Positions 6,788 through 41,391 of a stretch of 64,000 bases of DNA are shown in pieces. Under the pieces are notes generated by a model. That model did no database searches. It saw only the letters and a program-made list of their open reading frames with translations, and was not told the origin of the DNA. Source of the stretch: Eledone cirrhosa (lineage: Eukaryota); contig CAXHJY010000818.1 in NCBI GenBank assembly GCA_964016885.1, positions 124,001 through 188,000 of the forward strand, in the 5' to 3' direction. Numbering within the stretch: the stretch's first letter is position 1; each line of letters begins with the position of its first letter. Position numbers and translations under genes: made by a program.

Positions 6788-6953
6788 CTCATTTTGTCTG
6801 CGTACCCTTTGGCGCTAGCTTTCTGGGAATTGAGGTAATACGCGGTGACAGCAAGAGCAATCAGAAGAATGATGAGACAAGCACAGCCGACAGCAATATA
6901 AAACAGGTAGGTAGATGAGTTGATGTTGTTCACCTTACTGGTGTCTGATGGAG
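6788..6953 (-). CDS. RYK: RYK/Derailed transmembrane exon (A|PSDTSKVNNINSSTYLFYIAVGCACLIILLIALAVTAYYLNSQKASAKGYADKM|R)
   Basis: cttcttcacag|CT...ATGAG|gtatgt, 166 nt, phase 1 to 2; FYIAVGCAC resembles the RYK TM segment (FYISVGVCC in vertebrates, from memory). Confidence 0.93.
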
Positions 6954-8149
6954 CTGTGAAGAAGAGGAAGAAGCAGGTAAGAAAATAGAATATAAGACAG
7001 GTAGATAGATATGTTGATGTTCACCTTACTGGTGTCTGATGGAGCTGTGAAGAAGAGGAAGAAGTATCAGGGAGGAAAAATTTAAATGTACAGCTCAAAT
7101 CTATGAAGGTTTAGTTGAACTAAAACAAGGATTCTATCTTGTGAAATGAAACAACTTGCTCAAGATCATAATGTACCAGCTGGTCTGGATGTTGTTGCTG
7201 GCGTAGTATTGCAGTATTGATGTTGTGGTGTTGCTGATGTTGATGTTGTGGTGGTATTGCTGATATGTTGTTGATGTGGTGGTGGTGGTTGTGGTGTTGT
7301 GGATGTTGTTGATGTGGTGGTGGTGTTGTGGTGTTGTTGATGTTGTTGATGTGGTGGTGGTGTTGTGTTGTTGTTGATGTTGAGGTGTTGATGTTGTTGA
7401 TGTGGTGGTGTTGTGGTAGTACTTGTCGATCCTTGTTTACAAGTGATTAGAAAAGAAACCAAGAGACAGAGAGATGGTGGTGGTGGTCATATAACGAAGT
7501 GTGTTGCCCTTAAGTAGGGATTCATAATAGCGTGTAGCTGCTATAGTGGCATCCCTGAGAGGGAGAGAGAGAGATTTATGGTAGCGTGTGGCTCATTTGG
7601 TCATTCCATGAGAGTATCTTGGTCAGCCTATGGACTGTTCAGCCGACCCTCATATAAAGTCAGTTGATAACAGGGAGACATACCACCTTCGTTGATGTTT
7701 CAGAGGTCCCAAGTCTTGCTAGTATGGTGCCATTGTTTTGGCACGGCTTCTATGGTTAGATGCCATTCTAAACACCAGACATCTAACAATGTACTGGAGA
7801 GTATCTTACCCTTTCTGACCCCCAACTGACACCCCTGGAAATACAATTCCATATGATAGAGGGTGGGGTTGTATTAGTTGAGCCAGGTTAATCAATGTCT
7901 GGAAGAAATCCTGGCACTGGAATGGTGTAAGTTTTAAGATTATTGATGGGGTCAAATATGAAATATTAGGTTGAAATATATCAATAATCAATCAATAAAC
8001 GTAATGAATGCTTAACAAATCGTCCTTGTATTATTATATTACACTGTCTAGCTCTACACCTTGCCACTGACGTGAACCTAAACATCAAGTGCTCACCTGG
8101 GTGAACCTACAGTAACTTCATGTTACACTCCCAGGATATATATATATAT

Positions 8150-8290
8150 ATATAAAGGGTAAACAAATAACAAAAATAACAAGACAAACGGCACAGTACG
8201 TGGAAGAAATATATTAGTTTAATGCTTGAAATAACAGGGAGAGAGTATTAACGTTTCGGACACTAGTCCTTCATCAGAAGATAGAGTTAG
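8150..8290 (-). mobile_element. Probable Penelope-like terminal fragment with a degenerate hammerhead motif
   Basis: Minus strand CTGATGA-A-GGAC-TAGT-GTCC-GAAAC-GTTAA at about 8248-8277; stem I is poor; adjacent to (TA)n. Confidence 0.55.
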
Positions 8291-13902: not shown

Positions 13903-14037
13903 CTTTTCGGCATATTTTTCTCCGTTTAAAATTCAACCCCGTCCAATTGGATGAAGAAAATATACTTATATTCATTTGTATGTTTACATCAACTTCAGCA
14001 TTTAGCAAATTTGTGCAAGGGAGTTTCACTTTAAACA
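13903..14037 (-). CDS. RYK: RYK WIF-domain C-terminal exon with tetrabasic KRRK motif (V|FKVKLPCTNLLNAEVDVNIQMNISIFSSSNWTGLNFKRRKICRK)
   Basis: ccttgcag|TG...AAAG|gtaagg, 135 nt, phase 1-1; LNFKRRKxCxK is characteristic of RYK/Derailed. Confidence 0.96.
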
Positions 14038-30108: not shown

Positions 30109-30208
30109 CTGATAGCTTTGTTGGCACATTACCATCATTGCTGATATTGGCTGTAGGTTTGTTCATTGCCTGAGGGTTCGACACAAAAAACTGCATTTTG
30201 TAAGGCAT
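30109..30208 (-). CDS. RYK: RYK WIF-domain middle exon (MPYKMQFFVSNPQAMNKPTANISNDGNVPTKLS|V)
   Basis: ttctcatttcag|ATG...TCAG|gtaacc, 100 nt, phase 0 to 1; resembles RYK VEYKLGFQVDNVLAMDMPQVNISVQGEVPRTLS (from memory). Confidence 0.94.
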
Positions 30209-30364
30209 CTGAAATGAGAAAGAACAACAATGTTTATTTGAGAGAACCTGAGTAAATTGATGTAAAGTGGTTGGTGATAGTAAGGGCATCCAGTCATAGA
30301 AAATCTGTCAAACAAACGGCTGGGAGGACTCTTCAGTTGTGTTAAAGACATGACAACTTCCATT

Positions 30365-30860
30365 ACCAACAGTTACCAACAACCTATTCTACAACCTACC
30401 AATAGCTACCAACAACCAATTCTACAATCTACCAACAACCTACAAATAGCTACCAACAACCAATTCTACAATCTACCAACAACCTATTCTACAACCTAGC
30501 AATAGCTACCAACAACCAATTCTACAATCTACCAACAACCTATTCTACAACCTACCAATAGCTACCAACAACCAATTCTACAATCTACCAACAACCTATT
30601 CTACAACCTACCAATAGCTACCAACAACCAATTCTACAATCTACCAACAACCTACAAATAGCTACCAACAACCAATTCTACAATCTACCAACAACCTATT
30701 CTACAACCTACCAATAGCTACCAACAACCAATTCTACAATCTACCAACAACCTATTCTACAACCTACCAATAGCTACCAACAACCAATTCTACAATCTAC
30801 CAACAACCTATTCTACAACCTACCAATAGCTACCAACAACCAATTCTGCAATTTACCAAC
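30365..30860. repeat. About 56-bp minisatellite (CTACCAACAACC-based), about 9 copies
   Basis: Direct reading. Confidence 0.88.
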
Positions 30861-31485
30861 TCACACTAAAATCTGAAATTCAATGAAATGAACCATAACA
30901 ACAACAACAACAGTTTTTTTTTAAATTCGTGAACATTTCAAAACCTGCTGCTGGCTTTCTTAACAGAATTTCCTCTCATTATCACAACTTTAGTGGTTTT
31001 ATGTATATACATGTGTGTGTGTGTGTAAGTGTGTATGTGAGAGTGTGTGTGTAGCTATGTGAGTATATGGGTGTGTGTGTGTGTGTGTTTATAAACATAT
31101 GTGTGTGAGTGTGTGTGTCTGTGTACATGTGTGAGGTGAGTCTGTACATGTCTGTACATGTGTGTGTTCGTGTGTGAGTGTGCATGTGTGTGTTTGTGTA
31201 CATGTGTGAGTGTGCGAGTGTGTGTGTGCGATTGTGTGTGTGAGTGTGTGTTTTTCAAAAGCAGAGGAAGTTGGTTATTTTGTGAGTTTCTTTAATTTTT
31301 CAGTGTTTTTTGGGGGGGATATTTCTATTATTGCTGATATCATTACATTGATATCATTGACACAGCCTGGGGACAAGAACTCCCACCTTATATATATATA
31401 CATACACACACACATATATATACATATACACATACACACACACACATATATATATACATACATACATACACACACATATATATAT

Positions 31486-31520
<35 letters not shown>

Positions 31521-31556
31521 TATATATACATACATACACACACCCATATATATGTG

Positions 31557-31600
<44 letters not shown>

Positions 31601-31651
31601 CACATGCACACACACACATATATATATACATACATACACACACATATATAT

Positions 31652-31682
<31 letters not shown>

Positions 31683-31890
31683 TATATATATACATACATA
31701 CACCCATATATATATACATACATACACACATATATATATATACATACACACACACATATATATACATACATACACACACCCATATATATACATACATACA
31801 CACACCCATATATATGTGTATATATATATATACACACACACACACACATATATATGTATATATATATATAGATATATATATGTATATATA

Positions 31891-31924
<34 letters not shown>

Positions 31925-32828
31925 CATACACACACACACACATATATATATATATAAAACTATTTGGTGTAAATATGTATAGTGAAAGTAATAAAAATAC
32001 TAATAAAATAAGTAAACTATAGGAGGGAGATACTTGGAAATATACAAATATAAAGAAAGATAAAATAAAATAAAAATGAAAAATGAAAGGAAAAGCAGAG
32101 AATTTTCAAGAAACTGCAGGGGGGGATAACTTGAACATGAAATATCAGAATTCTTCAAAGAAGGAAATGAGAGCTGCTTAAAAAAAGATGGCAGTGAAAG
32201 ATCTAACTATTCAGAGAGAAATCAAAAGGTTACTCATTGAACAGTAGGTAATTGTATAGTAAATATTTAGAGGTCTGTCTGTAAGGAGTTAGTAATTCAG
32301 ATCTTTCATTAAAAGCATGCTAACCTTAGAATGTGGTGGAAAACTTTTCACCTAAACACAGCTTGTAATGTAAGTTTCAATAGAAGAATACATGTTTATA
32401 CAGTACCACTTGCTCCAGAAGTCTCTGAACTGGATTCTTGAAAATCCCTATATATTTGGACAAACTAGTTGAAATTTCTTTTCTCTAAATGTTTGATGGA
32501 ATTGATGTATTGGTAAAGTGTATTTTTAATTTGCTTACAATTAATTTAATGTAAGATTTAAACATACAGCTGTTGTCCTTTAGTTCAATAAATTAAAACT
32601 TCTGAAAGGCTTGTGAGGATAATTGTGTGTAGTAAAGTAATTATTGGTAGGTAGAGTGATTGTGTTATTTGTGTTCGAGAGGCCTTTAAAGTTGAGCAAG
32701 TGAAATTTTTACAGCAAGACTAACTGACTTTACTTGTGTTTCTGTTAAAGATCTTATGATATTTGCGATTTATTAGAAAGTGCAAAGAGAGTAAATTGAA
32801 GAAGTATTTCTGGATATTTGTTTTTACT

Positions 32829-32999
32829 TTTAACCAGCCACATCTGGCCAGAATTCTCTCACCTCTTTCTATTCAAACTGGCTGTAACCGGTCACTCATA
32901 CTAAATAATATCAAACTCTCATAGATTCGATATTATGTGAGGTAAAGCCTTTACTGCAAAAATACAATAGTAATTTAGAGTAATGTAAATGCTAAAGGG
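32829..32999 (+). mobile_element. MITE family A, left-truncated
   Basis: Ends GTAAATGCTAAAGGG-TTAA; body matches 6443-6662. Confidence 0.82.
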
Positions 33000-33385
33000 T
33001 TAAACTAAATGTTAGAACTCCAGGATATTTGTATATTTATCCAAGGGCAGGTAATCTATTGGAGTTTATCTGAAAAACTGCTGCAGTTACAAATTGCCTA
33101 ATTATAATAATGAGAAATGCTAATAAATGTGGTTTGTTCAGATAATGAAAAAATATATTTACTAATATTAGGAATTTTCATAGAATGTTGGAAGGGAAAT
33201 TGCAAATCTTATTAATATAAAATTATTTTCCATTAAATTTTTAGGAATTTCCTATAATTATGCTTAATTAAGCCCTAAGATATAATTTGATGAGGATATC
33301 AATTAAATTACTTCCATCTTGTTTTTTACCTAGATAGAATTGTCACAAAGGTAAATAGGATTTCTTGTGTACATAATTGTTTTAA

Positions 33386-33853
33386 CCCTTTTGTTACCAT
33401 ATTTCTAATGAAACACAGATTCTCATTTTCGAATTATTTAAAAAATAATCAAGAATTTGAAGAGATTTAGTAATATAACTAACTTTCTCATTATCAACAC
33501 TTTAGCATTTAAACCGACTGTATCCGGCTAGAATTATTTCACCTCTTTCTCTTCAAACCAATCATACTGGCCACTCATACTTATGTTAAGGTATTGTTCT
33601 CAAAATAAATAACATCAAAATCTCATAGATTAAATATTATGTGGAAAAAAGCTTTTACCATGAAAATACAATAGTTTATACAGTAGAGTAATCTAAATGT
33701 TAAAGGGTTAAGTTGATATTTGGAACCTAACTTAAAGATGTTTAAAAATGAAATTATGAAGTAAGATTTTGTTTAGAGAAATATAAAAACTTTACAAACA
33801 AACAGTTTTGTACGACAAAACGGGGGGTTCCAGGTGTTTTGGTATCAAAGGGG
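33386..33853 (+). mobile_element. MITE family B with nested MITE A (33498-33707)
   Basis: TTAA-CCCTTTTGTTACCA...TGGTATCAAAGGGG-TTAA; the inner element ends TAAATGTTAAAGGG-TTAA. Confidence 0.82.
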
Positions 33854-34465
33854 TTAATATCTAATTCAATGGTAGGAACAATTGTGTTGTTTAGTAAAGG
33901 CCAAAGCTTTAAGGAAAAAAAAATGTTTAATTATGGAAATATAAAAATCAATAATATTGAACTTGGTAAATCTACAATGCTGCTATTGTCACTAATAAAC
34001 CATTCTATTACCAACATACTATTGTTCTAGAAAAGAAGGGATTTAGCATTCGGCTTGGTTTTGTTTGTATGTTGTTGGTTTATCTGTTGTGTTTTTTTAC
34101 TATTCTGAGAATAATTGAATATACTTGTTCCCAACTCCAGATTCAGTTTTTGGTGGTGCTGAAGTACACAATAGGTATACATCTTTTATTTTTGGGAGAT
34201 AGACTTACACATATATATACATATACATACATACACACACACATACTTATAATTAGACCTGTACACACATATATATACATACATACATACACACACACAT
34301 ACTTATAATTAGACCTGTACACATATATATATATATACATACATACACATATACATACATATAACTAGACATATACACATATATATATACATACATACAC
34401 ATATACATACATACATACAACTAGACATATACACATATATACATACATAGTACTTATAACTAGAA

Positions 34466-34500
<35 letters not shown>

Positions 34501-35024
34501 CACACATACATGCACACACACATATATATATACATATATACTCATAACTAAACATATACACATGTATACAATGTGTACGTGTAAACAACTATGATTAGCA
34601 CATTAGTACACAAAGCCAACATATATATAAGAATGTGTGTCTATATATATATTGTGCTTAGTGTTAGGAAGGGCATCCAGCTGTAAAATACCCAGCCAAA
34701 TTTACAGTCCTCCCTGGAACAACGTGTGATATGGCCAACTCTGGGTAGACTTGCCTCTAAGCATGGACGACCCGTCGAACCCATGCAAGAATTGACACTA
34801 AACAGAGATGATGATGATATATATATATATATATATATATAAGCAGAAGGGATATTCAATTTGTTGGTAATTCAACAAATATAAATGTTTATAACTGATT
34901 CAGAGCACTAGACAGGTTTTCTGGAGTATAATTGTTTCTACTTTTGGCACAAGGCCAGCAATTACCCAGTGTATTACTGGTGCTTTATTTTATCGACCCC
35001 ATAAGGATGAAAGGCAAAGTTAAT

Positions 35025-35422
35025 ATTCAATGATATTAAATACCATTGCCAACAACAACCCTGAGTACCTTTTTGATTTCCATGTGTCTAACACACATGG
35101 ACATGCCCACAAAGCCAGAAAACAGCACAGTTCCCATAACTTTCAGAAACATTTTTTCATGCTCAGAGTTGCTGAAGCATGGAACAAACTACCTGTGTCA
35201 GTTGTTAGCTGTCGAGACACTGCATCCTTTAAAACCTCCATGCTTCCCGAGATTCGCCAACACTACACCTAATGTTCCCCCTCCATACACATACACACAT
35301 GTATACCATGACTCATACACTATTCACTTCCCTGACATTTGTGTATTATTCTATGTACTATACATACACCTTTGACGAGTTGTAGTGCACCTGAGCACTT
35401 TACACAATAATTTCATTATTAT
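35025..35422 (+). mobile_element. 5'-truncated CR1-like LINE 3' end
   Basis: NTHGHAHKARKQHSSHNFQKHFFMLRVAEAWNKLP fits the CR1/L2 ORF2 end pattern (TRGH..K....R..FF..RV...WN.LP); (ATT)n tail. Confidence 0.85.
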
Positions 35423-35453
35423 TAAATGGAAACTATATTTATAAAACCATATT

Positions 35454-35515
35454 TATTCTATTATATACATTTCAAGGGTACCAAAAACTTTGGTACGCTT
35501 TCATCAGATAAAATA
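35454..35515 (-). ncRNA. Minimal type-I hammerhead ribozyme motif (mirror copy; sense in the RYK pre-mRNA)
   Basis: Reverse complement of 35625-35686; loop III is GUAU. Confidence 0.78.
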
Positions 35516-35624
35516 CAAAGAGTGTTTTATAAATTTTGACATAGCCAAGGAACATACCTTAACGGTTGAAGTTTTCCTTAAGGTATGTTCCTTGGCTATG
35601 TCAAAATTTATAAAACACACTTTG

Positions 35625-35686
35625 TATTTTATCTGATGAAAGCGTACCAAAGTTTTTGGTACCCTTGAAATATATATAATAGAATA
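35625..35686 (+). ncRNA. Minimal type-I hammerhead ribozyme motif
   Basis: UAUUUUAU-CUGAUGA-stem II (AAGcGUACCAAA/UUUGGUACcCUU)-GAAA-U-AUAU-A-UA^-AUAGAAUA; predicted cut after 35678. Confidence 0.8.
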
Positions 35687-35766
35687 AATATGGTTTTATA
35701 AATATAGTTTCCATTTATTTAATATCATTGTATATATATATATATATATACATATATATACATATC

Positions 35767-35821
<55 letters not shown>

Positions 35822-35900
35822 GAGATAAGCGGAGCAAGCAAGATTCAAACAATTTTTTTAAATAAATTAAAAAATATAATTTAAATATTTACCTATTCCA

Positions 35901-35990
35901 ATTGCTTTTACCGACGGTTTCACTTCACAAAAGATTGGAGATCCCTAGGGACTTCCAAAGGAAAAGTTTAGATCATCAGAGAGCATTTTC
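35901..35990 (-). ncRNA. Type-I hammerhead ribozyme motif with long stem II
   Basis: Minus: AUGCUCU-CUGAUGA-(about 50-nt stem II incl. UUGGA..GUCCC/GGGAU..UCCAA)-GAAA-CC-GUC-GG-UA^-AAAGCA; one C.A mismatch in stem I. Confidence 0.68.
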
Positions 35991-36930
35991 CTTTCCTAGG
36001 ACAAAAAGTCCCAGGAACGGCAAAATATATTGCCATCTGCCAGCTAGCACAGGATCGAATAGTCACACTCCAATAAATGTTTCTGGTTGGCTTCAGTTTC
36101 TACCTCATCTAACACGAAATTCACAGCTCACACCTACAGTTTCAGCTGGCCGCAAGGTTTGTGCCTCATAGGAGGTTTCTTGGGTATTTTAATAATAAGG
36201 GGGTTAGAAAGAAGGAGGTAGTCCTATCATGAAAAAGCAGCATGAAATGAAGTGACTTGCTCAAGGAAACAACACATCAAACCAACGATATTATGATCAC
36301 AAGTCTAACCCACTAACCACTACGCCGTACTCCTTTACTAACTCACATCAATAATTTAATTCTTTCTACTTTTCTATTTTATCGACCCCGTAAGGCTGAA
36401 AGACAAAGTTAAGCTCGGCGGGACTTGAACTCAGATCATGAAGGGCCGTGACTCTATGCTGCAAAGCATGGCGTCTGACCCTCTACCGATACTGTCAATC
36501 CACCGCTCATATCAATGATTTGATAAAGTCATCTCAAGGGAAGCCACTTGAGATGACTTATTCAGGATCAGAGATTCCAGTTAGACAGATAAGATAAAAC
36601 TAAAGACCCGGGGTTAAAAATAGAAAGAAAAAAAAAACCCCTAAAATTGAACCCTGTAGTTTCACCATTGATGTCGTTGCTGTAAACAACTTGATCTACA
36701 ACAACAACAACTTGAAGAATGAGAAATAAAATAAAATAAAATAAAATATGGAAAATAAATAAAATGAAATAAAATGGAAGGAATTGAAGTGGAATATCTG
36801 TTTATTGGTTGATTTAATGTCTTTTCTGTCAATTCCTTTTGTTTAATGAAGTGTGTAGTGATGGGGGGGGGGGGGGGCTGTGGTGGTGGTGGTGGTGGTG
36901 GTGTCATAGGTGGTGGTTGGCTGAACAGAA

Positions 36931-36976
<46 letters not shown>

Positions 36977-37102
36977 TATTCACATATGTCCCACCCAAAA
37001 TGATGCTGATGATGTATATGCTTCTCTCTCTCTCTATATATATATTCACATATGTGTATATGCTTATATATATATATATATATATTCACATATGTGTATA
37101 TG

Positions 37103-37136
<34 letters not shown>

Positions 37137-37151
37137 CATATGTGTATATGC

Positions 37152-37197
<46 letters not shown>

Positions 37198-38247
37198 GCA
37201 TATATATATAAATATATACATATATATATAAAATTTAATTTATAAATGGCTTCTACAGGACAAGAACTGTTTCATTCGAAAAAAAACATCATATATTAAA
37301 TTTGATGTTTACACTCTACTAATGTATTGAGTACATTACTTACTGTGGTTACCCCCCAATTGAACCCACGACTCACACACACACACATATATATATATAC
37401 ACACACACATAGAACCCATATATAGTATATCAAAATATATATGCCACAATATATATATAGACAGTGTGTTTCAGTAGAAATATGGTAATAAAGGGTTAAA
37501 TATTTAAACCTCAACTGAAAACAAGGCAACATTTGTTGCAGGATTTTGGTATCTTAACAAGTTTTTTTATAGTATTTTCTCACATTTCTATAAATTGCAT
37601 ACAACTGCAATATCTTGATAATTACAATATTATGGGTGTATATATATATTTAGTTATATGTGTGTATGTATGTATACACACACATTTATATGAGTAAATA
37701 AATACATACACAGATACATATATATATATATATATATATATTCACACATATGTATATTATAGGAGTAAGCCTAAGTGCATATGCACATATCACATGTATA
37801 TAAGTGTATATTGTATATAAAGTAAATATATATATATATATTGTATATAAAGTAAATATATATATATATATATATATTGTATATAAAGTAAATATATATA
37901 TATATTGTATATAAAGTAAATATATATATATATATTGTATATTTATTAAAATAACAGATTAAAGTTTAAGCAAAGAATCGCTGCTTTCACCCTTTGCTCT
38001 ATGGTTCTTATATATTTGATATATATTTTCCTTATCGAGCCCTCTTTGGATTTCAGTCTTCAATTTTATTATTATTACTATATATATTGTATATAAAGTA
38101 AATATATATATATATATTGTATATAAAGTAAATATATATATATATATTGTATATAAAGTAAATATATATATATTGTATATAAAGTAAATATATATATATA
38201 TTGTATATAAAGTAAATATATATATATATATATTGTATATAAAGTAA

Positions 38248-38280
<33 letters not shown>

Positions 38281-38296
38281 CTTGTATATAAAGTAA

Positions 38297-38341
<45 letters not shown>

Positions 38342-39443
38342 CTTGTATAGAAGCTTGTAAAGTGCATATGCACATATGACATGTATATAAGTGTATACAA
38401 AGTAAATATATACACACACATATATATATATACACCACACACATATGTGGTATATGTGCAGATATCTAAGTATATGTGCAGATATCTAAGTATATGTGCA
38501 GATATCTAAGTATATGTGCAGATATCACATAAGCGTGATCCTGAAAAGTTTGTAAACAAGTGAAATAAATAGATTTAGCTGGAGGTAAAATAACTTGTAC
38601 CATTATTGGTGAATGTTAGATCAAGTCTTGGAGAACGGTGTAAATATTTGGAGGAGAAAGGTGTCTGTTAGTCACTGAGTGTGTAGGTGTGTCTGTGTAG
38701 GTGTGTAGGTGTGTCTGTGTGTGTAGGTGTGTAGGTGTGTGTGTGTAGGTGTGTCTGTGTAAGTGTGTAGGTGTGTCTGTGTAGGTATGTAGGTGTGTGT
38801 AGGTGTGTCTGTGTGTGTAGGCATGTGTGTGTAGGTGTAGATGTGTGTGTAGGTGTGTCTGTGTGTGTAGGTGTAGATGTGTATATGTAGATGTGCATGT
38901 AAGTCTGTCTGTATGTGAGTGTGTGAGTGTCTGTGTGTGTAGGTGTGTCTGTGTGTGTAGGTGTGTCTGTGTGTGTAGGTGTGTAGGTGTAGATGTGTAT
39001 ATGTAGATGTGCATGTAAGTTTGTCTGTCTGTATGTGTGTATGTGTGTGTGTAGGTGTGTGTGTGTGTGCGTAAGTCTGTGCATAGTGTAGATGTGCATG
39101 TAAGTCAAAGTGTGTGTGTGTGAATGTGTAGGGGTGTGTGTAAGTCTGTGTGTAGATGTAGATGTGCATGTAAGCCTGTCTGTCTGTGTGTGTGTGTGTG
39201 TAAATGTAGGGGTGCATTATATGTCTGAGTGTGACTATGTTTGTGTGAGTGTAAACCTGTGTTTACTTGAGCATGTGTGTGTATATATATATATATATAT
39301 AGTATTCTGTGTGCATGTGTGAGTGAATGGTGCCTTCTGTGTGTGTGTGTATGTTTGCTTATGTATGTGTGTGGTTAGCAATGTTTATAAAGGTAAAGAG
39401 CGAAGAAATAGATACATTAAAACAGCAAATCCAGTGGAAAATG

Positions 39444-39501
<58 letters not shown>

Positions 39502-39622
39502 GGAGGTGAGTTTTATTGTAGCACAATAAAGCAATGCAAATATCGGATAAGTAGCACTCAACAGTTTATAGGAGTGGAGTATAAATAATATAAAACAAAA
39601 AGATTGTTAAAAGAGTTCCATG

Positions 39623-39693
39623 TATTTTATTATGCGCATTTCAAAAACAAATATCATCATGGGACGATATTTGCGTTCTCATCAGATAAAATA
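39623..39693 (-). ncRNA. Minimal type-I hammerhead ribozyme motif (mirror copy; sense in the RYK pre-mRNA)
   Basis: Reverse complement of 39773-39843. Confidence 0.8.
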
Positions 39694-39772
39694 GGGAGAC
39701 ATTAAATCAACATATGTTGATTTAACACTTCACTGCTCGCAAGTGTTTTTTAAGCTTCATATCATGTCTCCC

Positions 39773-39843
39773 TATTTTATCTGATGAGAACGCAAATATC
39801 ATCCCATGATGATATTTGTTTTTGAAATGCGCATAATAAAATA
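39773..39843 (+). ncRNA. Minimal type-I hammerhead ribozyme motif
   Basis: UAUUUUAU-CUGAUGA-stem II of about 15 bp (loop CCAU)-GAAA-U-GCGC-A-UA^-AUAAAAUA; perfect 8-bp stem I, palindromic loop III; cut after 39835. Confidence 0.84.
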
Positions 39844-39871
39844 CATGGAACTCTTTTAACCATCTTTTGAT

Positions 39872-40167
<296 letters not shown>

Positions 40168-40254
40168 AAAAGCTCTGTAGCCTACATAGAGCACTCTCTT
40201 TTCCTTTACCTTTAATAACGGAAATACTTCATATATATATGCATGTGTGTGGGA

Positions 40255-40302
<48 letters not shown>

Positions 40303-41046
40303 CAAAGAGGGTGTGGTAAGGAACCAGGTGGACCATAACCCACCAGAGTACTCGATACTATGCGTAGTAGAGTGGGTAATAGGAAAAGGGTCAGCACCCC
40401 GACGGCTGAGCTCCGGCCGTTTCGACAGCTTGATCCGAACTATATATGAGAGAGAGAGGGGGGGGGGGGTAAAGATAAGCTCCTTAATTCTTTAAATGAC
40501 ATCAAAGACATAATTTCACATCCTTCAAAGTCCTGGGCCCTTTAGCTTTTAAGGGACCAACAATACAAGATAATTATAGGGTTTAGTTTCTAACTACCTC
40601 TTCCTCCTCCTCATTATTTTTAGTTATTTTTATATATTTTTTGTTCTCAGTTTTGTTTTGTTTGCTTTGTTTTTATTTTATTATTTTTTCTTCTTCTTTA
40701 TGATCCTAGTTCAAATCCCGCCGAGGTTAACTTTGCCTTTCATCCTTACGATAAAAATAAAGTACCAGTCACGCACTGGGGTCGATTTAATCGACTTTCC
40801 CCTCCCCCCAAATTGATGGCCTTGTGTCTATATAAGAAACCATTATTTTTTCTTCTTCTTAATCTTTTAGAACTTCACATCAATATTTAGAATCTCTGCT
40901 TCTCTGGGTTTATGGCTGAAGTAACAAGTTTGAAGTTGGAGAGACAATCTCACAGAACATGTTTGAAGTCCAAGATTTAACCCAGGTGGTGCTATTAAGT
41001 TAGACATGGCCTGGGCCAATACTGGCCAAAACCTATCAAAGTTTAA

Positions 41047-41235
41047 CCCTTTAGCATTTCCATTACTCTATATATACCATTGTATTTTCGTGGTAAAAGC
41101 TTTAATATCAAATCTATGAGATTTTTATATTATTTATTTTGGGAACAATACCTAAACATCAGTATGAGTGGCTAGTTATGGCCAGTTTGAACAGAAAGAT
41201 ATGAGAGAATTCTGGCTAGATATGGCCAGTTTAAA
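41047..41235 (-). mobile_element. MITE family A, reverse orientation, one TIR eroded
   Basis: TTAA-CCCTTTAGCATTT start; body is the reverse complement of 6443-6662. Confidence 0.8.
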
Positions 41236-41263
41236 GAAAACTATAATGGTATATTAGACTTAC

Positions 41264-41391
41264 CGATTCTCTTTTTGTGCTTTGCCATGTGAAGTGTATT
41301 TCATTGATTTCTGTAGCAACTGGTAAATTGAATGAGAGGGCATGGTGGTTGATGATACCATTACGGACGTAGGACAGTTCCGCTGTGACAC
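41264..41391 (-). CDS. RYK: RYK WIF-domain N-terminal exon, probably exon 2 (G|VTAELSYVRNGIINHHALSFNLPVATEINEIHFTWQSTKRES)
   Basis: ttattatag|GT...TCG|gtaagt, 128 nt, phase 1 to 0; resembles RYK GLDAELYYVRNDLISHYALSF...LHFTW (from memory). Confidence 0.96.

What the first reader, a model, noticed from the sequence alone, without database searches (positions are those of the whole stretch)
35423..35717. Palindromic element carrying a hammerhead ribozyme on each strand: a candidate self-masking ribozyme cassette
Seen: a near-perfect 140-bp-arm palindrome in which each arm holds a full type-I HHR core (CUGAUGA/stem II/GAAA/tiny stem III/UA/8-bp stem I). Known: minimal HHRs with palindromic loop III mark the terminal repeats of Penelope-like elements and retrozymes and typically cleave as dimers; Penelope elements often form inverted terminal repeats. 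Inference: whichever strand is transcribed, the antisense arm is made first and the ribozyme second, so the HHR would be captured into a 140-bp duplex. That would let the element sit in a host intron without cutting it, while creating long dsRNA (ADAR or Dicer substrate). Editing or unwinding could unmask cleavage. Two mismatches indicate a recent origin.
Basis: partly seen in the sequence, partly recalled or inferred. Interest (0 to 1): 0.85.

Follow-up and report, generated by a model that had tools for sequence, protein, structure and literature searches.

The report
Penelope retroelement stump with mirrored ribozymes
The palindrome and its two hammerhead ribozyme motifs are real and lie in an intron of a likely Ryk/Derailed-type gene, but they are the back-to-back ends of a common Penelope-like jumping gene, most likely an ordinary by-product of how it inserts and not a purpose-built self-silencing cassette.

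Summary
In detail: 140-bp arms, 2 mismatches, a type-I hammerhead core on each strand, predicted cut after 35678, and stem II covaries across 11 related motifs. The palindrome lies in an 11-kb intron of a WIF-domain gene on the minus strand. It is not a self-contained cassette. Each arm is the hammerhead-bearing 3' end (pLTR) of a Hydra-clade Penelope-like element (372 exact core copies; RT + GIY-YIG ORF upstream in long copies). The left arm runs on to 34841, broken by two later insertions. Head-to-head pairs are routine: 41 of 86 loci. Junctions vary, and 8 of 15 tail-sampled pairs lack a whole ribozyme in at least one arm. Inverted pLTRs, one-sided tails and opposite-strand hammerhead pairs are published, and this scan met the same thing in other genomes. 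Lone minimal hammerheads were reported inactive in vitro, so masking is probably unnecessary. One lead remains: pairs carry one long and one short end (32 of 36; 15 of 15), which fits twin priming from two reverse-transcription start sites. Interest low.

The parts
34818..34841 (.). (TA)n target microsatellite at the long end of the insertion
   Evidence: sequence; nearly all of 30 tail-sampled copies end in TA-rich repeats
34841..34932 (-). distal part of the left arm: the ~100-nt tail, up to the family's long 3' end (L)
   Evidence: 96.6% to uninterrupted copy L013; raw reads of run X21 join 34932 to 35730 on opposite strands
34933..35021 (-). later insertion: fragment of an abundant unrelated repeat (SINE-like, label recalled)
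   Evidence: 77 hits in 57 fetched loci, best non-self hits 96-97%
35021..35042 (-). 22-nt middle piece of the left arm between the two insertions
   Evidence: 100% to L013
35043..35422 (+). later insertion: 3' fragment of another repeat with an (ATT)n tail; its frame resembles a CR1/L2-type LINE C-terminus (recalled; no Pfam hit)
   Evidence: 89% and 88% to L062
35423..35579 (-). left arm: 5'-truncated pLTR copy, including the 15-nt spacer 35563-35577; breakpoint about 72-74 nt upstream of C3
35454..35515 (-). minimal type-I hammerhead motif on the host gene's sense strand; C3 at 35507, predicted cut after 35462; A>G in loop III
35578..35730 (+). right arm: 5'-truncated pLTR copy ending at the family's short 3' end (S); breakpoint 55 nt upstream of C3
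35625..35686 (+). minimal type-I hammerhead motif; C3 at 35633, predicted cut after 35678
35731..35816 (.). (TA)n target microsatellite at the short end
   Evidence: sequence
30209..41263 (-). host intron (11,055 nt) between two WIF-domain exons (41264-41391 and 30109-30208) that holds the palindrome
   Evidence: Pfam WIF hits E 1.3e-13 and 1.8e-6; AG/GT ends and matching phases

Best explanation
This is a 5'-truncated insertion of a Hydra-clade Penelope-like retroelement in which two copies of the hammerhead-bearing terminal repeat are joined head to head, most likely as a by-product of integration and without a function of its own. Shown: both arms match the 3' end of long copies that carry an RT + GIY-YIG ORF; the insertion sits in (TA)n; one arm ends at a short site and the other about 100 nt further on. 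Inferred: the element's protein nicked both strands of the TA target and primed two cDNAs, one at each of two fixed start sites in the RNA; both stopped 55-75 nt upstream of the ribozyme, near a small built-in inverted repeat, and were joined through a 2-nt microhomology. Two unrelated repeats inserted later into the left arm. In the host pre-mRNA the arms would pair into a 140-bp hairpin that buries the sense-strand hammerhead, but a lone minimal hammerhead would hardly cut anyway.
For: Family: 1402 candidate places for the arm, 372 exact 32-nt cores, 816 exact tail ends. Parent: in long copies the arm follows a 3' UTR and an ORF homologous to a PLE C-terminus on the same strand (e.g. L116, L118, L120); in L114 the tail runs into the start of the next ORF. 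Protein: DKT, YRDD, CxCX5C, CxxC and CxH motifs read from the translations; Pfam GIY-YIG E 0.002, below its curated cut-off; Atlas neighbours at 0.95-0.96 carry HTH_animal, RVT_1 and GIY-YIG; these match the Hydra diagnosis (PMC8557442 section 11). Architecture: 41 of 86 core-sampled loci and 15 of 30 tail-sampled loci have an adjacent inverted partner; among the 100 listed core places, 12 opposite-strand neighbours within 4 kb are head-to-head and 1 is tail-to-tail (counted by hand). One long plus one short end in 32 of 36 classifiable pairs (p 1e-6 against 50%) and in 15 of 15 (p 3e-5). L002 on another contig has the same junction with long and short ends swapped. A second subfamily forms the same structure at 39588-39878. 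Literature: PMC4209133, PMC3846280, PMC8557442, PMC11167929.
Against: No phylogeny against published Hydra proteins was built; the clade rests on motifs. The RW motif reads RWC or RWR, not RWK, and the 3' UTR (over 1 kb) makes the element longer than the under 3 kb given for Hydra. Pfam found nothing in the two longest ORFs tested and PDB nothing in one. The priming order is inferred: fold-back followed by trimming of one arm gives the same end products. Three SS pairs and one LL pair break the rule. Selection on intronic copies was not measured, so a benefit of masking is not excluded.
Confidence: 0.92

Rival explanations
1. Self-masking cassette: the palindrome is kept because the antisense arm captures an active ribozyme, so that the copy can stay in an intron; editing or unwinding could switch cleavage on.
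For: The copy is intronic. On the host strand the antisense arm comes first and the duplex is predicted at -216 kcal/mol with 140 pairs. Both sense-strand hammerheads that passed my descriptor in this window lie in palindromes.
Against: 45 of 86 loci have no adjacent partner; 8 of 15 tail-sampled pairs lack a whole ribozyme in one or both arms; core positions are mutated in some partner arms (e.g. C3 in L025, L181, L212). A single minimal hammerhead showed no cleavage in vitro (PMC4209133), and the Anolis one cut only with the element's protein (PMC11167929). Geometry alone explains the order.
Confidence: 0.04
2. Same element, other route to the inversion: one strand folds back at a short palindrome and primes its own copy, and one arm is then trimmed at the short site (self-priming model of Arkhipova 2013).
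For: Arms of a pair share subfamily haplotypes. 43 of 86 breakpoints fall 45-79 nt upstream of C3, around an 8-bp inverted repeat, and L183 and L190 overlap by 14-16 nt there. PMC3846280 proposes self-priming on an antisense template.
Against: In 23 of 32 long/short pairs the short arm reaches further upstream than the long arm (7 the reverse, 2 ties, counted by hand), and in L148, L180 and L241 the arms share no sequence; fold-back needs an added trimming step for these. In vitro both tail boundaries are RT start sites and both strands are nicked and extended. This rival changes the mechanism, not the identity.
Confidence: 0.35
3. A non-autonomous palindromic element (MITE- or retrozyme-like) that spreads as a 295-bp unit.
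For: Many short copies have similar length; L002 has the same junction as the window.
Against: Junctions differ in nearly every pair; L002 has the long and short ends swapped; pairs belong to different subfamily haplotypes; I saw no tandem arrays of the palindrome among the fetched loci.
Confidence: 0.02
4. Assembly artefact (fold-back chimera).
For: The window lies on contig C845, not one of the large chromosome-scale contigs; no piece listed bridges the junction.
Against: The arms differ at two sites, only one arm carries two later insertions and a tail, flanks are unique on both sides, and the same layout recurs at dozens of loci on large contigs with different junctions.
Confidence: 0.02

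Closest known systems
Hydra-clade EN+ Penelope-like elements (Craig et al. 2021, PMC8557442; includes Hydra-1_Obim, and Penelope-13_HM noted with a 5'-truncated inverted copy)
   Same: C-terminal GIY-YIG, DKT, CxCX5C linker, CxxC/CxH around the conserved E and N, (TA)n target, hammerhead in the 3' part, inverted 5' copy.
   Different: Another family: its hammerhead differs from the one listed for Hydra-1_oBim; RWC/RWR for RWK; 3' UTR over 1 kb; tail about 100 nt against the usual 30-40.
Inverted pLTR plus one-sided tail of canonical PLE insertions (Arkhipova et al. 2013, PMC3846280; Craig 2021 fig. 2 legend)
   Same: Head-to-head inverted pLTR next to the truncated 5' end, palindrome or microhomology at the junction, tail at one end only.
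   Different: Here both arms are so short that the whole insertion is one palindrome, and the one-long-one-short rule is counted (32 of 36; 15 of 15).
Minimal type-I hammerheads of PLEs (Cervera and de la Pena 2014, PMC4209133)
   Same: Same core, long stem II, self-complementary stem III region suited to a dimer; that paper reports pairs of motifs 100-700 bp apart on opposite strands.
   Different: A10.1-U11.1 in place of G-C; 8-bp stem I; no activity data for this family.
Poseidon element of Anolis, in vitro (Frangieh et al. 2024, PMC11167929)
   Same: Two fixed 3' ends that define a tail; AT-rich target; both strands nicked and extended.
   Different: Other clade; the parts I read (parts 1-2 of 4, plus a word search) do not link the two start sites to inverted pairs.
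Twin priming of LINE-1 (recalled, not read here)
   Same: Two primers on opposite target strands give a head-to-head 5' inversion joined by microhomology.
   Different: In L1 the second site is not fixed and the two parts do not overlap; here the second site is fixed and the parts often overlap, which duplicates the ribozyme.

Membership tests
EN+ Penelope-like element | single ORF with RT and C-terminal GIY-YIG upstream of the terminal repeat | tested here: met
   long copies; GIY-YIG E 0.002 (below cut-off); Atlas 0.95-0.96; absent from the window copy, which is truncated
EN+ Penelope-like element | pLTR with hammerhead; partial tandem in which the repeat leads into the next ORF | tested here: met
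   L114: arm, tail, then ORF start
EN+ Penelope-like element | inverted 5'-truncated copy and a tail at one end | tested here: met
Hydra clade | DKT in place of DKG | tested here: met
   KSDKT in L111, L113, L118 translations
Hydra clade | CxCX5C linker; CxxC and CxH around E and N; no CCHH in the EN core | tested here: met
   read by eye from translations, against the text
Hydra clade | N-terminal RWK motif | tested here: inconclusive
   RRLRWC in L113 and L114, RRVRWR in the related family
Hydra clade | insertion into (TA)n | tested here: met
Hydra clade | RT phylogeny groups with published Hydra proteins | not tested
   no published Hydra protein was held as a tool-given sequence
Neptune clade (my first guess) | CX2-5CxxC linker and CCHH motif | tested here: not met
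   linker is CxCX5C
Type-I hammerhead ribozyme | core CUGANGA, GAAA, UH | tested here: met
   core invariant in 11 aligned motifs (they were selected on it)
Type-I hammerhead ribozyme | stems I and II supported by covariation | tested here: met
   94% of cells paired; 9 of 10 stem II pairs change on both sides; 0 of 500 shuffles reach the score; stem I shows one-sided changes only
Type-I hammerhead ribozyme | G10.1-C11.1 closing pair | tested here: not met
   A-U in this family; 7 AU, 2 GC, 2 GU in 11 motifs
Type-I hammerhead ribozyme | match to an Rfam hammerhead model | tested here: not met
Type-I hammerhead ribozyme | self-cleavage | not testable with these tools
   needs an in vitro assay or RNA ends
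Non-LTR retrozyme | head-to-tail tandem units that each carry a hammerhead | tested here: not met
   the two motifs are on opposite strands; definition from bioRxiv 10.64898/2026.07.22.740005

The most novel reading that the evidence does not exclude
Penelope-like elements build their head-to-head ends by programmed twin priming: the two nicks in the target each start reverse transcription at a different fixed site of the RNA, so almost every inverted insertion carries exactly one long and one short end (32 of 36 and 15 of 15 pairs here), and palindromic double-hammerhead hairpins in host introns are the routine output. This family, with a 100-nt tail and hundreds of young copies, is a ready test set.
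Probability: 0.5. Interest if true: 0.5.

Novelty: new member of a known kind. Interest (0 to 1): 0.2.

Why it matters
As a cassette it does not matter: it is one of many truncated retroelement stumps. Two side results have modest value. First, how Penelope-like elements form inverted repeats is named as an open task in PMC8557442, and the counted one-long-one-short rule ties it to the two start sites measured in vitro. Second, about half of the sampled copies form near-perfect hairpins, two of them in one intron of this gene, so the family is a likely large source of intronic double-stranded RNA for editing or silencing; that is untested.

Tried and rejected
Rfam scans gave only chance microRNA-type hits and no hammerhead. 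The ORF just behind the arm in L017 belongs to another PLE family inserted into the tail: of the 30 loci fetched with it (L031-L060) only L031, the source locus, holds the arm; it is 48% identical to this family over the RT part. My first label, Neptune, was dropped. The idea that the two arms come from different RNA templates (6 discordant pairs at two variable sites) was rejected: one site is unlinked to any haplotype, the window's variant does not sit on the haplotype that usually carries it, and arms otherwise share haplotypes. No RNA holder was listed for the locus, so there is no evidence on expression, editing or small RNAs. Laid contigs and reads are dominated by other copies and neither prove nor disprove the junction. 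PDB search: none. My first hammerhead-collecting script had a logic error and was redone. The tail-centred sample stayed at 30 of 816 places. Luense et al. 2016 (dimer cleavage) is not held; I know it only through the review PMC6765202. Five paper searches listed no paper that proposes twin priming for PLE inversions; the library lacks most subscription papers, including Evgen'ev and Arkhipova 2005.

Full report
1. Observation. The longest near-perfect inverted repeat in 30-42 kb has arms 35423-35562 and 35578-35717, with two mismatches and a 15-nt spacer. Each arm holds a type-I hammerhead motif: 8-bp stem I, CUGAUGA, stem II, GAAA, a self-complementary 8-nt stem III region and a predicted cut after 35678 (plus) or 35462 (minus). 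Rfam did not report a hammerhead. My own descriptor found 4 motifs in the window and 0 in each of 100 shuffles. An alignment of 11 motifs from related subfamilies in fetched loci keeps the fold: 94% of cells paired, 9 of 10 stem II pairs changed on both sides, 0 of 500 shuffles as high, and slid controls far lower. These motifs were chosen on core, stem I and stem III; stem II was not used in choosing them, so its covariation is the independent part. The closing pair 10.1-11.1 is A-U, not G-C. Single-strand folding does not form the monomer core, as expected for motifs that need a dimer.

2. The element is larger than the palindrome. The right arm continues to 35730 and ends in (TA)n. The left arm continues on the minus strand at 35021-35042 and 34841-34932 and also ends in (TA)n; it is broken by an 89-nt repeat fragment and a 380-nt fragment with an (ATT)n tail (the SINE and CR1/L2 labels are recalled). 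Raw reads of another study join 34932 to 35730 on opposite strands, which shows that this tail normally follows the arm directly in other copies.

3. Family. The genome is 3.0 Gb and the window is G000:C845:124001-188000. The arm has 1402 candidate places, with the best 40 at 99-100%; the 32-nt core occurs exactly 372 times and the tail end 816 times. Long copies carry a 3' UTR of over 1 kb and, upstream on the same strand, an ORF with RT and GIY-YIG motifs. In L114 a truncated arm and the tail lead into an ORF start, the partial tandem typical of Penelope-like elements. The motifs (DKT, CxCX5C, CxxC/CxH, no CCHH) and the (TA)n target match the Hydra clade (PMC8557442 section 11); the RW motif fits only in part and no tree was built. 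Pfam gave GIY-YIG at E 0.002 for one of three pieces and nothing for the two long ORFs; the Atlas gave neighbours at 0.95-0.96 with HTH_animal, RVT_1 and GIY-YIG.

4. Architecture across copies. I examined 86 loci that cover 98 of the first 100 listed core places (of 372). 41 have an inverted partner next to their 5' breakpoint. Ends fall in two classes about 100 nt apart, short (S) and long (L). Pairs: 32 LS, 3 SS, 1 LL, 5 unclassifiable; unpaired copies: 21 L, 20 S, 4 other (p 1e-6 for 32 of 36, 1.7e-6 after removing one duplicated locus). Caveats: L139/L141 and probably L191/L192 are duplicates; the SS call for L194 rests on a 23-nt hit; five loci with a more distant inverted partner (L128, L138, L160, L185, L211) were counted as unpaired. 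An independent sample, the first 30 of 816 tail-end places, gave 15 pairs; all 15 partners end at S, and 8 of 15 lack a complete hammerhead in one or both arms. 43 of 86 breakpoints lie 45-79 nt upstream of C3, around an 8-bp inverted repeat; junctions differ between loci. L002 has the window's junction with L and S swapped. Arms of a pair share subfamily haplotypes and differ by 2.5% on average in 37 pairs, against 2.9-3.1% between loci; the window pair, at 1.4%, is below that mean but not exceptional.

5. Host context. Four phase-compatible exons on the minus strand (41264-41391, 30109-30208, 13903-14037, 6788-6953) encode a WIF domain (Pfam E 1.3e-13, 1.8e-6, 4.1e-9) and a hydrophobic, probably membrane-spanning segment; WIF plus a membrane segment is the Ryk/Derailed layout (own knowledge; the kinase part was not found in the window). 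The palindrome lies in the 11-kb intron between the first two. On that strand the antisense arm is made first and the predicted hairpin is -216 kcal/mol. A second palindrome of a related subfamily lies in the same intron at 39588-39878.

6. Mechanism. Shown: identity, truncation, target, two end classes and their pairing. Inferred: both target strands were nicked and primed, one at each start site, and the two cDNAs were joined at a microhomology. This rests on the in vitro findings of two start sites and extension of both strands (PMC11167929), on the LS rule, on 23 of 32 pairs in which the short arm reaches further upstream, and on pairs whose arms do not overlap. Fold-back with trimming (PMC3846280) can give the same products; I put it at 0.35 against 0.5 for twin priming. 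Masking would occur physically if the intron folds as predicted, but nothing shows it is selected, and a lone minimal hammerhead was inactive in vitro (PMC4209133).

7. What is known. PMC4209133 already notes dual minimal hammerheads 100-700 bp apart on opposite strands. PMC3846280 and PMC8557442 describe the inverted 5' copy, head-to-head order and a tail at one end. What I saw of each paper: PMC4209133 parts 1-2 of 4; PMC11167929 parts 1-2 of 4 and a word search; PMC3846280 passages; PMC8557442 passages, section 11 and supplement rows; PMC6765202 passages; bioRxiv 10.64898/2026.07.22.740005 part 1 of 5, supplements not seen. Earlier notes of this scan reach the same reading in other genomes; they are not independent support.

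8. Verdict. A real feature, a new family member of a known class, an ordinary product of Penelope-type insertion. Interest 0.2.

Noticed in passing
window 6788-41391 (minus strand): Host gene with three WIF-domain exons and a membrane-segment exon, Ryk/Derailed-like; a short duplicate of the start of the last exon lies just upstream of it near 7000-7050.
   Followed up: partly
window 39497-39878: Second head-to-head hammerhead palindrome of a related subfamily (loop III region AUGCGCAU), with a similar tail on the left side only; related palindromes in L117, L210 and L018.
   Followed up: partly
window 8277 (minus) and 23079 (plus): Two further CUGAUGA...GAAA cores of another type with weak stem I; probably decayed retroelement ends. 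The one at 8277 is unpaired and on the host sense strand.
   Followed up: no
family-wide, 45-79 nt upstream of the hammerhead core: 43 of 86 copies are 5'-truncated in this 35-nt zone, paired or not; it may be an RT stop at a hairpin or the 5' end of the RNA.
   Followed up: partly
L065, L066, L068, L069, L070: A second, very abundant Hydra-like PLE family with open frames of 823-834 aa (68,674 candidate places for the protein search, which also catches related families); L066 holds two copies head to head.
   Followed up: partly
family position 28 nt upstream of the core: An A>C change recurs in about 11% of arms without linkage to any subfamily haplotype; possibly a mutation hotspot.
   Followed up: partly
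L139/L141 and L191/L192: Pairs of loci with the same insertion and flanks, probably segmental duplications or assembly duplicates.
   Followed up: no
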